From the NCBI GenBank assembly GCA_964016885.1, contig OZ024740.1:412424001-412488000 (forward strand): 64,000 bases of DNA, in the 5' to 3' direction. The translations under genes and the position numbers were made by a program. The notes below the pieces were generated by a model that was not told where the DNA came from, did no database searches, and saw only the letters and a program-made list of their open reading frames with translations. The DNA comes from Eledone cirrhosa (Eukaryota). This document shows, one piece after another, positions 5,113 through 60,847 of the stretch; the stretch's first letter is position 1, and each line of letters opens with the position of its first letter.

Positions 5113-5319
5113 GGGTGTCATATTAAGTTCTGGTATTTATACATTTAGATATATATATATATATATATATATATATATATATATATATATATATAAAGAC
5201 AAACATAGAATATTCGAAAATATTCTGTATGTTTATAATAAACATTTCGAAGACCCAATCGCTATAGAATAGAATACGTCACGTATTACAATTTGAGATT
5301 CTCGATAAAAGCAAGGGAA

Positions 5320-5362
5320 GTAACCTACGCGTTTCATTCTTATTAGAAATCATCAGGATTAC
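5320..5362 (-). ncRNA. Minimal type I HHR, first of 7 minus-strand copies (every 312 bp to 7192-7234)
   Basis: Reverse complement gtaatc-CTGATGA-tttctaataagaat-GAAA-cgcg-TA-ggttac. Confidence 0.85.
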
Positions 5363-55755: not shown

Positions 55756-58700
55756 GAAAATTTAAGTAAGTAAGTAAAAAATGTTTAAAAAATTTTTTTT
55801 AAAAAATATTTTCTTATTTTACGTCTTTTATATTATTGTTCTGCACCCTCCTGCATTGAACCACCTAGGTACTATGACATAACCTGTGTATTTGCTGGCA
55901 TGGACGTTCATCTGTGCGCCTATGTTAGTTGATATATTAAATTATCTATATTTATCTCCAAATCACTGATTTGTCGAGCAAACCTGCCAAAACCACTTCA
56001 AAATTTTTTTTGGGGTGTTAGTAGGCGTCAGTCATCTTACCATCCCATTCCTTCTAACTAGCCTCTATGTCACGTGATTGATTCTTTAGAATCGGCCATT
56101 TGACTGGAAGCAGTGAGAATTTCAGTACATAGAATCCAGTCCTCGCCTAGCTGTTCTTTCTACCGAATTATTATTTTTATATGAGCCGCCAGTGTCCGCG
56201 CATTGCCTGGAGGCTCAGCTGAGAAAAGACTCCCTGATGACGCAATGAATTCTCGACAGTTGGATTATGTAACTGTCTTAACCCATTGCATAAACTAATT
56301 AGTTGGAGTGAAAATTTAAGTAAGTAAGTAAAAAATTTAAAAAAAATTTTTTTTTTTAAATATTTTCTTATTTTACGTCTTTTATATTATTGTTCTGCAC
56401 CCTCCTGCATTGAACCACCTACGTACTATGACATAACCTGTGTATTTGCTGGCATGGACGTGCATCTGTGCGCCTATGTTAGTTGATATATTAAATTATC
56501 TATATTTATATCCAAATCACTGATTTGTCGAGCAAACCTGCCAAAACCACTTCAAAATTTTTTTTGGGGTGTTAGTAGGCGTCAGTCATCTTACCATCCC
56601 ATTCCTTCTAACTAGCCTCTATGTCACGTGATTGATTCTTTAGAATCGGCCATTTGACTGGAAGCAGTGAGAATTTCAGTACATAGAATCCAGTCCTCGC
56701 CTAGCTGTTCTTTCTACCGAATTATTATTTTTATATGAGCCGCCAGTGTCCGCGCATTGCCTGGAGGCTCAGCTGAGAATAGACTCCCTGATGACGCAAT
56801 GAATTCTCGACAGTTGGATTATGTAACTGTGTTTATCCCATTGCAGAAACTAATTAGTTGGAGTGAAAATTTAAGTAAGTAAGTAAAAAATTTTTAAAAC
56901 ATTTTTTTAAAAAATATTTTCTTATTTTACGTCTTTTATATTATTGTTCTGCACCCTCCTGCATTGAACCACCTAGGTACTATGACATAACCTGTGTATT
57001 TGCTGGCATGGACGTGCATCTGTGCGCCTATGTTAGTTGATATATTAAATTATCTATATTTATCTCCAAATCACTGATTTGTCGAGCAAACCTGCCAAAA
57101 CCACTTCAAAATTTTTTTTGGGGTGTTAGTAGGCGTCAGTCATCTTACCATCCCATTCCTTCTAACTAGCCTCTATGTCACGTGATTGATTCTTTAGAAT
57201 CGGCCATTTGACTGGAAGCAGTGAGAATTTCAGTACATAGAATCCAGTCCTCGCCTAGCTGTTCTTTCTACCGAATTATTATTTTTATATATAGCCGCCA
57301 GTGTCCGCGCATTGCCTGGAGGCTCAGCTGAGAATAGACTCCCTGATGACGCAATGAATTCTCGACAGTTGGATTATGTAACTGTCTTTATCCCATTGCA
57401 GAAACTAATTAGTTGGAGTGAAAATTTAAGTAAGTAAGTAAAAAATGTTTAAAAAAATTTTTTTAAAAAATATTTTCTTATTTTACGTCTTTTATATTAT
57501 TGTTCTGCACCCTCCTGCATTGAACCACCTAGGTACTATGACATAACCTGTGTATTTGCTGGCATGGACGTGCATCTGTGCGCCTATGTTAGTTGATATA
57601 TTAAATTATCTATATTTATCTCCAAATCACTGATTTGTCGAGCAAACCTGCCAAAACCACTTCAAAATTTTTTTTGGGGTGTTAGTAGGCGTCAGTCATC
57701 TTACCATCCCATTCCTTCTAACTAGCCTCTATGTCACGTGATTGATTCTTTAGAATCGGCCATTTGACTGGAAGCAGTGAGAATTTCAGTACATAGAATC
57801 CAGTCCTCGCCTAGCTGTTCTTTCTACCGAATTATTATTTTTATATGAGCCGCCAGTGTCCGCGCATTGCCTGGAGGCTCAGCTGAGAATAGACTCCCTG
57901 ATGACGCAATGAATTCTCGACAGTTGGATTATGTAACTGTCTTTATCCCATTGCAGAAACTAATTAGTTGGAGTGAAAATTTAAGTAAGTAAGTAAAAAA
58001 TTAAAAAAAAAATTTTTTTTAAAAATATTTTCTTATTTTACGTCTTTTATATTATTGTTCTGCACCCTCCTGCATTGAACCACCTACGTACTATGACATA
58101 ACCTATGTATTTGCTGGCATGGACGTGCATCTGTGCGCCTATGTTAGTTGATATATTAAATTATCTATATTTATCTCCAAATCACTGATTTGTCGAGCAA
58201 ACCTGCCAAAACCACTTCAAAATTTTTTTTGGGGTGTTAGTAGGCGTCAGTCATCTTACCATCCCATTCCTTCTAACTAGCCTCTATGTCACGTGATTGA
58301 TTCTTTAGAATCGGCCATTTGACTGGAAGCAGTGAGAATTTCAGTACATAGAATCCAGTCCTCGCCTAGCTGTTCTTTCTACCGAATTATTATTTTTATA
58401 TGAGCCGCCAGTGTCCGCGCATTGCCTGGAGGCTCAGCTGAGAATAGACTCCCTGATGACGCAATGAATTCTCGACAGTTGGATTATGTAACTGTCTTTA
58501 TCCCATTGCAGAAACTAATTAGTTGGAGTGAAAATTTAAGTAAGTAAGTAAAAAATTTTTAAAAAATTTTTTTAAAAAATATTTTCTTATTTTACGTCTT
58601 TTATATTATTGTTCTGCACCCTCCTGCATTGAACCACCTAGGTACTATGACATAACCTGTGTATTTGCTGGCATGGACGTGCATCTGTGCGCCTATGTTA

Positions 58701-60847
58701 GTTGATATATTAAATTATCTATATTTATCTCCAAATCACTGATTTGTCGAGCAAACCTGCCAAAACCACTTCAAAATTTTTTTTGGGGTGTTAGTAGGCG
58801 TCAGTCATCTTACCATCCCATTCCTTCTAACTAGCCTCTATGTCACGTGATTGATTCTTTAGAATCGGCCATTTGACTGGAAGCAGTGAGAATTTCAGTA
58901 CATAGAATCCAGTCCTCGCCTAGCTGTTCTTTCTACCGAATTATTATTTTTATATGAGCCGCCAGTGTCCGCGCATTGCCTGGAGGCTCAGCTGAGAATA
59001 GACTCCCTGATGACGCAATGAATTCTCGACAGTTGGATTATGTAACTGTCTTTATCCCATTGCAGAAACTAATTAGTTGGAGTGAAAATTTAAGTAAGTA
59101 AGTAAAAAATGTTTAAAAAATTTTTTAAAAAAAATATTTTCTTATTTTACGTCTTTTATATTATTGTTCTGCACCCTCCTGCATTGAACCACCTAGGTAC
59201 TATGACATAACCTGTGTATTTGCTGGCATGGACGTGCATCTGTGCGCCTATGTTAGTTGATATATTAAATTATCTATATTTATCTCCAAATCACTGATTT
59301 GTCGAGCAAACCTGCCAAAACCACTTCAAAATTTTTTTTGGGGTGTTAGTAGGCGTCAGTCATCTTACCATCCCATTCCTTCTAACTAGCCTCTATGTCA
59401 CGTGATTGATTCTTTAGAATCGGCCATTTGACTGGAAGCAGTGAGAATTTCAGTACATAGAATCCAGTCCTCGCCTAGCTGTTCTTTCTACCGAATTATT
59501 ATTTTTATATGAGCCGCCAGTGTCCGCGCATTGCCTGGAGGCTCAGCTGAGAATAGACTCCCTGATGACGCAATGAATTCTCGACAGTTGGATTATGTAA
59601 CTGTCTTTATCCCATTGCAGAAACTAATTAGTTGGAGTGAAAATTTAAGTAAGTAAGTAAAAAATTTTAAAAAAAATTTTTTAAAAAGTATTTTCTTATT
59701 TTACGTCTTTTATATTATTGTTCTGCACCCTCCTGCATTGAACCACCTAGGTACTATGACATAACCTGTGTATTTGCTGGCATGGACGTGCATCTGTGCG
59801 CCTATGTTAGTTGATATATTAAATTATCTATATTTATCTCCAAATCACTGATTTGTCGAGCAAACCTGCCAAAACCACTTCAAAATTTTGTTTGGGGTGT
59901 TAGTAGGCGTCAGTCATCTTACCATCCCATTCCTTCTAACTAGCCTCTATGTCACGTGATTGATTCTTTAGAATCGGCCATTTGACTGGAAGCAGTGAGA
60001 ATTTCAGTACATAGAATCCAGTCCTCGCCTAGCTGTTCTTTCTACCGAATTATTATTTTTATATATAGCCGCCAGTGTCCGCGCATTTCCTGGAGGCTCA
60101 GCTGAGAATAGACTCCCTGATGACGCAATGAATTCTCGATAGTTGGATTATGTAACTGTCTTTATCCCATTGCAGAAACTAATTAGTTGGAGTGAACATT
60201 TAAGTAAGTAAGTAACAAATTTTTAAAAAAATTTTTTTTAAAAATATTTTCTTATTTTACGTCTTTTATATTATTGTTCTGCACCCTCCTGCATTGAACC
60301 ACCTAGGTACTATGACATAACCTGTGTATTTGCTGGTATGGACGTGCATCTGTGCGCCTATGTTAGTTGATATATTAAATTATCTATATTTATCTCCAAA
60401 TCACTGATTTGTCGAGCAAACCTGCCAAAACCACTTCAAAATTTTTTTTGGGGTGTTAGTAGGCGTCAGTCATCTTACCATCCCATTCCTTCTAACTAGC
60501 CTCTATGTCACGTGATTGATTCTTTAGAATCGGCCATTTGACTGGAAGCAGTGAGAATTTCAGTACATAGAATCCAGTCCTCGCCTAGCTGTTCTTTCTA
60601 CCGAATTATTATTTTTATATGAGCCGCCAGTGTCCGCGCATTGCCTGGAGGCTCAGCTGAGAATAGACTCCCTGATGACGCAATGAATTCTCGACAGTTG
60701 GATTATGTAACTGTCTTTATCCCATTGCAGAAACTAATTAGTTGGAGTGAAAATTTAAGTAAGTAAGTAAAAAATTTTTAAAAAATTTTTTTAAAAAATA
60801 TTTTCTTATTTTACGTCTTTTATATATATATATATATATATATATAT

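What the first reader, a model, noticed from the sequence alone, without database searches (positions are those of the whole stretch)
5196..60821. Candidate system: Naiad PLE driver plus non-coding ribozyme arrays sharing one integration signature
Seen: both arrays and the coding PLEs at 42540-47090 and 49486-53740 have a sense arm ending in (TA)n, joined at its 5' side to an inverted copy of the same element. The PLE at 12170-14972 shows the same inversion. In both arrays the HHRs point outward from the junction (~7420 and ~55489). Established: PLEs carry HHRs in pLTRs and often show partial tandem and inverted 5' structures. Inference: the multi-kb arrays were inserted in one step by PLE RT copying a circular or concatemeric ribozyme RNA, not by unequal crossover. 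That would be a retrotransposon-driven route to satellite DNA.
Basis: inference. Interest (0 to 1): 0.85.

Follow-up and report, generated by a model that had tools for sequence, protein, structure and literature searches.

The report
Ribozyme arrays inserted by Penelope transposons
Two repeat arrays carry a predicted self-cutting RNA motif in every unit and recur at many sites with the same insertion marks as protein-coding Penelope-type retrotransposons, so they were likely pasted in already several units long from a small RNA circle.

Summary
The observation largely holds. Arrays A (312 bp) and B (555 bp) carry a type I hammerhead motif in every unit. Each is two head-to-head arms ending on (TA)n.

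Of 129 loci examined, 88 have this two-arm form, all with 3' ends outward. In 83 of 88, one arm stops at a fixed short site and the other at a fixed long site. Three coding families show the same pairing (31 of 31 pairs).

Both arms of a locus share one haplotype, and a 20-unit array has near-identical units. Length does not rise with age. The arrays are therefore likely born multimeric from a monomer template, probably a circle.

- The coding elements fit the Hydra clade (C-terminal GIY-YIG, RWK, DKT, CxCx5C), not Naiad.
- Later local duplication is real, including in both window arrays.
- The 49486-53740 and 12170-14972 copies fit the (TA)n signature only partly.

B shares a short motif just past its long end with seven coding families; A lacks it. 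These are non-LTR retrozymes, and their PLE-driven circle route was already proposed. The locus-level evidence is what is new. Expression, cleavage and the driver protein are untested.

The parts
5134..5195 (.). (TA)n target tract, left of array A
5196..7422 (-). Array A, minus arm, 7.2 units of 312 bp; 3' end at the short site (unit phase about 150)
7419..7422 (.). Head-to-head junction of array A, 4-bp microhomology
7419..9475 (+). Array A, plus arm, 6.6 units; 3' end at the long site (unit phase about 185)
7712..7754 (+). Example type I hammerhead of unit A: 6-bp stem I, CUGAUGA, short stem II, GAAA, palindromic minimal stem III, predicted cleavage after 7748
   Evidence: activity untested
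9475..9592 (.). (TA)n target tract, right of array A
10190..10600 (-). 3' end (pLTR) of another coding family with Hydra-type motifs ('R'), with hammerhead core near 10322; a shorter copy lies at 5046-5151. Its core resembles that of A
12173..14977 (+). Broken PLE ('E'), RT then GIY-YIG, related to the 794-aa protein, with inverted 3' piece at 12173-12618; ends in (TTTAAAA)n; no canonical hammerhead core found
42541..45340 (-). Coding family 'D', minus arm, 5'-truncated and frameshifted; long 3' end on (TA)n; hammerhead core at 42729
45332..47092 (+). Family 'D', plus arm; short 3' end on (TA)n; hammerhead core at 46993
47599..47939 (.). Small two-arm insertion of family 'D' 3' ends (long end left, short end right), TA-flanked
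48647..49427 (-). B', a relative of unit B (72% identical): about 1.3 units plus a short inverted arm, TA-flanked; carries the hammerhead core and the shared motif at 49165
49488..53639 (-). Coding family 'C': pLTR 53003-53639, ORF, pLTR 49488-50142; long 3' end on (TA)n; no canonical hammerhead core found in the pLTR
50594..52978 (-). 794-aa RT/GIY-YIG ORF with Hydra-clade motifs (RWK 37, DKT 120, YRDD 351, CxCx5C 654, LVY/YIG 673/688, CxxC 752, CxH 780)
53637..53738 (+). 102-bp inverted piece of family 'C', not TA-flanked
54929..54962 (.). (TA)n target tract, left of array B
54963..55488 (-). Array B, minus arm, about 1 unit; long 3' end (phase about 463)
55489..60821 (+). Array B, plus arm, 9.6 units of 554/555 bp; short 3' end (phase about 342)
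56784..56866 (+). Example type I hammerhead of unit B: long stem II, palindromic stem III, GUU cleavage triplet
   Evidence: activity untested
57064..57086 (+). CTCC-N-GTYGAG motif just past B's long end, shared with seven coding families; candidate RT-binding signal
   Evidence: function inferred
60821..60848 (.). (TA)n target tract, right of array B

Best explanation
Arrays A and B are non-coding hammerhead-motif repeats (non-LTR retrozymes) that were likely inserted into (TA)n, already several units long, by the RT/endonuclease of Hydra-clade Penelope-like elements copying a monomer RNA circle. SHOWN: dispersed copies, (TA)n ends, two head-to-head arms, one short-site and one long-site 3' end per insertion, one haplotype over both arms, and the same end rule in three coding families. 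INFERRED: (1) array transcripts self-cleave as dimeric hammerheads and are ligated into circles; (2) an enzyme dimer cuts both target strands and primes two cDNAs, one at each internal site; (3) each RT runs round the template for a random length; (4) the two cDNA ends anneal at a few bases and prime each other's second strand, giving the inversion; (5) afterwards a minority of units, crudely a quarter to two-fifths of the extra units, arise by local duplication or conversion.
For: 88 of 129 loci are two-arm, all minus-then-plus, and 83 of 88 pair a long with a short end. Coding families do so in 8/8, 13/13 and 10/10 pairs. The two sites match the PLE 'tail', shown in vitro to lie between two internal RT start sites (PMC11167929). 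The two arms differ at 11 of 1992 (A) and 2 of 193 (B) polymorphic site comparisons, against 11% and 24% for shuffled arm pairs. Non-majority alleles fixed over both arms number 173, against 6 fixed in one arm only. L223 has about 20 units with no differences inside its 18-unit arm apart from the TA-derived end, and L220 has 4.00 identical units with an 8-12-bp target duplication. Length does not correlate with singleton density (rho -0.08 and -0.16). In 11 of 83 loci, the window's A among them, neither arm contains the other, so both were copied from a template independently. Junction microhomology is enriched, and 5' phases do not depart from uniform. Stem III is palindromic in A, B and D. 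B shares a motif with seven coding families at the homologous place.
Against: 39 alleles recur in two or more units of a locus (26 A, 13 B; chance 1.3 and 0.4), nearly all within one arm, so pure one-step birth is false for many long arrays, both window arrays included. Whole arrays carry G at the predicted cleavage residue (51 exact units at 12 places; five origins by parsimony). A cleavage-made circle does not explain that simply. Hammerhead cleavage was dispensable for insertion in vitro in another PLE. A lacks the shared motif, and no coding partner was found for it. The window's 794-aa element shows no canonical hammerhead core. Two loci join an A arm directly to a different coding PLE (L032, L144). 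These may be two-RNA events or later insertions. 39 of 129 loci were scored single-arm.
Confidence: 0.6

Rival explanations
1. Same PLE-driven, born-multimeric insertion, but the template is a long linear, uncleaved read-through transcript of a young source array, not a circle.
For: Cleavage-site-G arrays exist, and L223 and L224 share that change on one background. Unprocessed RNA was the main substrate in vitro (PMC11167929). Multimeric retrozyme RNAs accumulate in axolotl (PMC7229834).
Against: New alleles are repeatedly fixed over every unit of both arms (173 cases), while unit-level variants are almost never shared between arms (2 cases against 245 singletons). That points to a monomer bottleneck at each cycle. 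Linear copying with 5' truncation can only shorten arrays, yet 13-20-unit arrays have near-identical units.
Confidence: 0.2
2. A PLE inserts a short seed (one to two units per arm), and the multi-kilobase arrays then grow locally by unequal crossover or slippage, as favoured in bioRxiv 10.64898/2026.07.22.740005.
For: 39 multi-unit alleles with spacings mostly of 2-4 units. Two-unit patterns differ between the arms of the window's array A. Median locus size is only 2.6 units in the set chosen by its end, not by its length.
Against: The multi-unit share is 0.11. A crude simulation of full gradual growth gives 0.20-0.30. Only 6 alleles are fixed in one arm alone. The least diverged loci include some of the longest. 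A very fast burst straight after insertion cannot be excluded.
Confidence: 0.13
3. The second arm is a fold-back copy of the first (self-priming, as proposed for head-to-head Penelope inversions in PMC3846280) or a DNA-level inverted duplication.
For: It explains the shared haplotype. 72 of 83 loci are geometrically compatible with it.
Against: 11 of 83 array loci, and several family D loci (such as L192, L197, L217), have arms of which neither contains the other. The 5' phases of the two arms are not closer than chance (11 of 62, 3 of 26).
Confidence: 0.05
4. The inversions are assembly or chimeric-read artefacts in a TA-rich repeat.
For: No listed contig of four public runs bridged the window's own junction, and raw long reads were not available.
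Against: Polarity is 88 of 88 and end pairing 83 of 88. Contigs of other public runs show TA-joined ends at both fixed sites and short head-to-head joints at other phases (sides of 24-26 letters).
Confidence: 0.02

Closest known systems
Metazoan non-LTR retrozymes (Cervera and de la Pena 2020, PMC7229834; Li et al. 2026, bioRxiv 10.64898/2026.07.22.740005)
   Same: Short AT-rich non-coding tandem units with a type I hammerhead in each, a palindromic weak stem III, and co-occurrence with PLEs. Rolling reverse transcription of a circle by a PLE was proposed there.
   Different: The parts read describe head-to-tail arrays. They do not describe two-armed inverted arrays, fixed paired 3' ends, (TA)n targeting or haplotype sharing between arms. 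The 2026 preprint favours pLTR origin with later local amplification. Here no unit was found serving as the pLTR of an ORF in 127 loci.
Hydra clade of C-terminal EN+ Penelope-like elements (Craig et al. 2021, PMC8557442)
   Same: RT then GIY-YIG; RWK, DKT, CxCx5C, CxxC and CxH motifs; (TA)n insertion; hammerhead in the pLTR of families D, G and R.
   Different: Family C is about 3.5 kb per unit (Hydra is generally under 3 kb) and lacks a canonical hammerhead core. Tails here are 35-170 nt against the usual 30-40. Non-autonomous Hydra-dependent arrays are not described in the section read.
PLE inverted pLTR plus 'tail' architecture and two-site internal initiation (PMC3846280, PMC8557442 Fig. 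2 legend, PMC11167929)
   Same: An inverted 5'-truncated copy at the 5' end, a tail on one arm only, and two fixed RT start sites.
   Different: Here the rule is counted per insertion (83 of 88 arrays, 31 of 31 coding pairs), extends to protein-free arrays, and includes non-nested arms that self-priming cannot make.
Naiad clade (PMC8557442)
   Same: (TA)n targets and tandem or inverted insertions.
   Different: Naiads have an N-terminal endonuclease and lack canonical hammerheads. The window's ORFs have a C-terminal endonuclease.
Non-autonomous Chlamys elements such as MRC1 (PMC8557442, passage)
   Same: [quoted passage not shown]
   Different: Algal, served by N-terminal EN+ elements, and generally similar to their partner at the 3' end. 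Here B shares only a motif of about 25 nt, and A none detected.

Membership tests
Non-LTR retrozyme | Short tandem unit (about 150-450 bp; 51-972 bp in the 2026 survey) | tested here: met
   312 and 554/555 bp
Non-LTR retrozyme | Type I hammerhead motif in each unit | tested here: met
   Core, stems I-III and NUH triplet present; 583 and 1871 exact core copies genome-wide; Rfam listed no hammerhead among the rows shown
Non-LTR retrozyme | Non-coding, GC below 50% | tested here: met
   No ORF of 150 aa or more in either array; GC 35% and 37%
Non-LTR retrozyme | No LTR, PBS or PPT | tested here: inconclusive
   No LTR-like frame round the arrays; PBS and PPT not searched
Non-LTR retrozyme | Target duplication longer than 4 bp where visible | tested here: met
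   One case, L220, 8-12 bp; hidden by (TA)n elsewhere
Non-LTR retrozyme | Self-cleavage and expression as circular RNA | not testable with these tools
   No RNA holder listed; predicted folds are stable (A z -3.3 against dinucleotide shuffles)
Hydra-clade PLE | Single ORF, RT followed by C-terminal GIY-YIG | tested here: met
   YRDD at 351, LVY/YIG at 673/688 of 794
Hydra-clade PLE | RWK motif and DKG modified to DKT | tested here: met
   RWK 37, DKT 120
Hydra-clade PLE | CxCx5C linker; CxxC and CxH round the conserved E and N; no CCHH | tested here: met
   654, 752, 780 in C; also in D; absence of CCHH judged by eye
Hydra-clade PLE | Canonical hammerhead in the pLTR | tested here: inconclusive
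   Present in D, G and R; not found in C or E
Hydra-clade PLE | Insertion into (TA)n | tested here: met
   C, D, G; E ends in (TTTAAAA)n
Hydra-clade PLE | Phylogenetic placement with named Hydra families | not tested
   No named reference set at hand; the two species-named relatives are hypothetical proteins of Actinostola
Naiad PLE | N-terminal GIY-YIG before RT | tested here: not met
   Endonuclease is C-terminal in C, D, E and G
Naiad PLE | Lack of canonical hammerhead | tested here: not met
   D carries one
PLE insertion architecture | Variable 5' truncation with inverted 5'-truncated copy | tested here: met
   88 of 129 array loci; 5' phases do not depart from uniform
PLE insertion architecture | Tail on one arm only (two start sites) | tested here: met
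   83 of 88 arrays, 31 of 31 coding pairs

The most novel reading that the evidence does not exclude
A PLE dimer primes two cDNAs, one at each of two internal sites, on a ribozyme-made RNA circle and rolls round it. It lays down up to about 20 identical units in one event and uses the two cDNAs as each other's second-strand primers. A CTCC-N-GTYGAG hairpin is the Hydra-clade recognition signal that circle B has captured. Circles whose cleavage residue becomes G after ligation, possibly by A-to-I editing, escape self-cleavage and give some of the longest arrays.
Probability: 0.3. Interest if true: 0.82.

Novelty: new variant of a known kind. Interest (0 to 1): 0.62.

Why it matters
How animal retrozyme arrays arise is open. 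One line of work proposes rolling reverse transcription of circles by PLEs without genomic proof, and a 2026 preprint favours local amplification after insertion. PLE second-strand synthesis and the origin of their inverted 5' copies are also unresolved. This genome gives hundreds of recent events with a near-exceptionless long/short end rule, and arrays that look born long. It also offers a candidate cis signal and young coding families. That makes both questions testable in vitro with defined RNA, target and protein. It would also show a direct RNA-to-satellite route and a compact signal for inserting non-coding cargo at (TA)n.

Tried and rejected
Rfam scan: only sub-threshold repeat and hairpin matches, no hammerhead in the 150 rows shown. 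Pfam: nothing for the six PLE proteins.

Naiad identity: rejected on domain order.

A-to-I editing as a general source of haplotype change: not shown. A>G 11 against T>C 7; 19 against 14, p=0.10, in A; 3 against 0 in B.

The 203T allele as a template-borne two-unit pattern: 17 exact hits. The three other single hits are lone units, and the C17 array has it in all 11 units on another haplotype, so the window pattern looks local.

L216 as a two-RNA inversion: rejected. It is an A insertion inside a D copy with a target duplication.

A or B as the pLTR of an ORF: none in 127 loci by tblastn with the 794-aa protein. This is a sample, not the genome.

Family R as source of A: the cores look alike, but the alignment is not significant (18 of 300 shuffles as good).

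Sequencing runs: no RNA holder listed. Contigs laid on 4300-10500 and 7270-7580 did not test empty alleles or bridge the junction.

Earlier findings of this scan: none. PMC5785218 was not held.
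Full report
OBSERVATION. The window lies on G000:C1 of a 3.0-Gb genome. Array A is a 312-bp unit in two arms, minus 5196-7422 and plus 7419-9475, between (TA)n tracts. Array B is a 554/555-bp unit, minus about 54963-55488 and plus 55489-60821, also between (TA)n tracts. Every unit has CUGAUGA...GAAA...NUH with stems I and II and a palindromic minimal stem III, oriented away from the junction. The coding element at 42541-47092 (family D) has the same form. 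The element at 49488-53738 (family C) is pLTR-ORF-pLTR on the minus strand with only a 102-bp inverted piece that lacks a TA flank. The element at 12173-14977 is inverted but ends in (TTTAAAA)n. Rfam and Pfam gave nothing relevant.

THE CODING ELEMENTS FIT HYDRA, NOT NAIAD. Craig et al. (PMC8557442; passages, section 11) define Naiads by an N-terminal GIY-YIG and lack of canonical hammerheads. They define Hydra by a C-terminal GIY-YIG, RWK, DKT, CxCx5C, CxxC/CxH and (TA)n targets. The 794-aa protein has RWK 37, DKT 120, YRDD 351, CxCx5C 654, LVY/YIG 673/688, CxxC 752 and CxH 780. It has 73 relatives at E<=1e-20 among 8000 candidates scored; the two with species names are hypothetical proteins of Actinostola. 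A tree with named families was not built. Family C has many near-intact genomic copies (58 matches from 57 of 99,848 candidates scored).

SAMPLE OF LOCI. Exact hammerhead-core matches number 583 for A and 1871 for B, and 206 exact short-end/TA joins exist for A. I fetched four sets. Forty A loci and 39 B loci, the window included, came from best-scoring DNA searches (40 of 511 and 39 of 944 candidates scored, biased to long arrays). Forty-six A loci came from the not-yet-fetched short-end hits on C1 and C2, chosen by end and not by length. Four came from an allele search. That makes 129 loci.

ARCHITECTURE. 88 of 129 loci have two opposed arms, 39 were scored single-arm, and 2 have two same-strand pieces. 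All 88 are minus-then-plus. 3' ends fall at two fixed phases: about 150 or 185 in A, about 342 or 463 in B. The last few bases are target-derived, as the terminal-only alleles 151T and 463A show. Of the 88, 83 pair a long with a short end, 1 pairs two short ends, 3 have one off-site end, and 1 was cut by the fetch. One search resolved that one (L180) as long+short and showed that the 'single' L182 is also inverted long+short. Of six new loci there, four are long+short, one has an off-site end and one is single-arm. In the three sets not chosen by end, 127 of 140 3' ends abut (TA)n, against a background of about 10%. Coding families obey the same rule where both ends are TA-joined and visible: 8 of 8 (C), 13 of 13 (D), 10 of 10 (G), from 30 loci each. 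The window's own C copy is not among these pairs. This is the PLE tail, known to sit on one inverted arm (PMC3846280, passages). It was shown in vitro to lie between two internal RT start sites in a protein predicted to dimerise (PMC11167929, parts 1-2 of 4). 5' phases do not depart from uniform. Junctions without inserted bases show excess microhomology (A mean 2.9, n=39; B 1.7, n=13; null 0.7), and 23 of 62 and 13 of 26 junctions were scored with inserted or unaligned bases.

BOTH ARMS ARE COPIED SEPARATELY, FROM ONE HAPLOTYPE. In 11 of 83 loci, the window's A included, neither arm contains the other, and the two 5' phases are no closer than chance. Several D loci show the same. This excludes fold-back as the rule. 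Yet the arms of a locus differ at only 11 of 1992 (A, 61 loci) and 2 of 193 (B, 25 loci) polymorphic-site comparisons, against 11% and 24% after shuffling. 173 non-majority alleles are fixed over both arms, 6 in one arm only, 17 are partial in one arm, 2 partial in both, 2 in all units but one, and 245 are singletons (B homopolymer tracts masked). Either one RNA serves both arms, or both RNAs come from one source locus. L032 and L144, where an A arm meets a different coding PLE without TA between, may be two-RNA events or later insertions with deletion.

BORN LONG, THEN REWORKED. L185 has 13 units with 2 singletons. L223 has about 20 units with no differences inside its 18-unit arm apart from the TA-derived end; it is on an unplaced contig, where consensus smoothing is possible. 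L220 has 4.00 identical units inside a D copy with an 8-12-bp target duplication. Length does not track singleton density (53 A loci, rho -0.08; 27 B loci, rho -0.16; near-duplicates L161 and L176 dropped). Against pure one-step birth, 39 minor alleles recur in several units (chance 1.3 and 0.4), 37 of them within one arm. They include 203T, 204A and 123G in the window's A and 379C in its B. A crude model puts the observed share (39 of 352, 0.11) at about 25-40% of extra units made later, and full gradual growth at 0.20-0.30. RT or sequencing errors among the singletons would make later growth larger than estimated, and a burst straight after insertion is not excluded. Repeated fixation of new alleles across whole arrays is my reason for preferring a monomer circle to a linear multimer. 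This is inference.

RIBOZYME HISTORY. Parsimony on 72 of 94 A haplotypes places the most recurrent changes in the hammerhead: the tolerant N7 position, stem I, and stem/loop II. The cleavage residue turns A to G five times. 51 exact units at 12 places carry it, including all of L223 and L224. By the NUH rule (recalled) these should not cleave. This favours the linear rival unless the change arises after ligation. A strand bias for editing was not significant.

DRIVER. No unit served as pLTR of an ORF in 127 loci. A CTCC-N5-14-GTYGAG motif lies upstream of the start codon in seven coding families (L051, D/L192, G, L095, L073, L221, C). It falls 5-9 nt past the long end where that end is known (C, D, G) and at the same place in B and B'. 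It occurred in 9 of 2000 shuffled B units; the pattern was drawn from these same sequences, so that figure flatters it. B is closest by eye to C and L095. The window's C copy lacks part of the motif. A lacks it. A's core resembles that of family R, which also lacks it, but not significantly. Trans-mobilisation is therefore inferred, and better for B than for A.

INDEPENDENT DATA. No RNA run was listed. Contigs of other runs show TA-joined ends at both fixed sites and three short head-to-head joints at other phases, but none bridges the window's junction (one search was uninformative).

KNOWN WORK. Non-LTR retrozymes and their proposed PLE-driven copying of circles are in PMC7229834 (parts 2-4 of 6) and PMC4209133 (parts 1-2 of 4). 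bioRxiv 10.64898/2026.07.22.740005 (parts 1-3 of 5; supplements not seen) derives them from pLTRs and leans to local amplification. PMC7761336 and PMC8490949 were seen as passages. Nine searches found no report of two-armed retrozyme arrays with paired ends, or of this motif. Subscription papers and the supplements of these papers were not seen and may hold such cases.

VERDICT. A real, recently active system: retrozymes of a known kind, moved by Hydra-type PLE machinery. The insertion-level evidence favours multimeric birth followed by modest local turnover. Interest 0.62; new variant of a known kind.

Noticed in passing
L223 (G000:C1483), L224, L225, L226, L044, L052; window 7436: Whole A arrays carry G at the predicted hammerhead cleavage residue (UAG context), arisen about five times; it includes the longest uniform array seen. 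Editing or a ligation-junction effect is possible but unproven.
   Followed up: partly
L032:4192-9480 and L144:591-1900: An A arm is joined head-to-head, without TA, to a different coding PLE: a full-length family G copy in L032 and a 5'-truncated element of another type in L144.
   Followed up: partly
L228-L257 (family G): Very young coding family with Hydra-type motifs: 40 copies 100% identical over 301 bp of its 3' end, with two fixed ends about 100 nt apart. A good candidate for in vitro work.
   Followed up: partly
window 4372-5031 (-): C-terminal fragment of a different PLE with a GIY-YIG domain that looks like the canonical CCHH type (recalled resemblance); high contig depth in other runs.
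   Followed up: partly
window 11205-11967 and 17011-18415: Two further tandem elements with hammerhead-like cores in each copy (524-bp and 1000-bp periods); possible additional retrozyme or pLTR families.
   Followed up: no
window 437-826, 15988-16299, 21871-22086, 25648-25924, 34227-34795, 35189-36786, 60849-61312: Many small inverted, mostly TA-flanked elements, some with hammerhead-like cores; likely short two-arm PLE insertions of other families that could be mistaken for MITEs.
   Followed up: no
window 22878-25140 (-): Frameshifted LINE-like RT region (weak RVT_1 hit, zf-RVT above cut-off).
   Followed up: no
window 62524-63104, with copies near 2170, 10610, 20004, 28542, 37097, 42103: 188-bp SINE-like repeat in three tandem copies plus dispersed fragments; recalled as resembling cephalopod SINEs, not tested.
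   Followed up: no
window 10-419: Diverged (86%) fragment of the family C pLTR, ending on (TA)n at about the short site.
   Followed up: no
L160/L161 and L176: Near-identical A arrays 11 kb apart beside an assembly gap (L160/L161), and an adjacent duplicate of a whole insertion (L176); assembly duplication or local segmental duplication.
   Followed up: no
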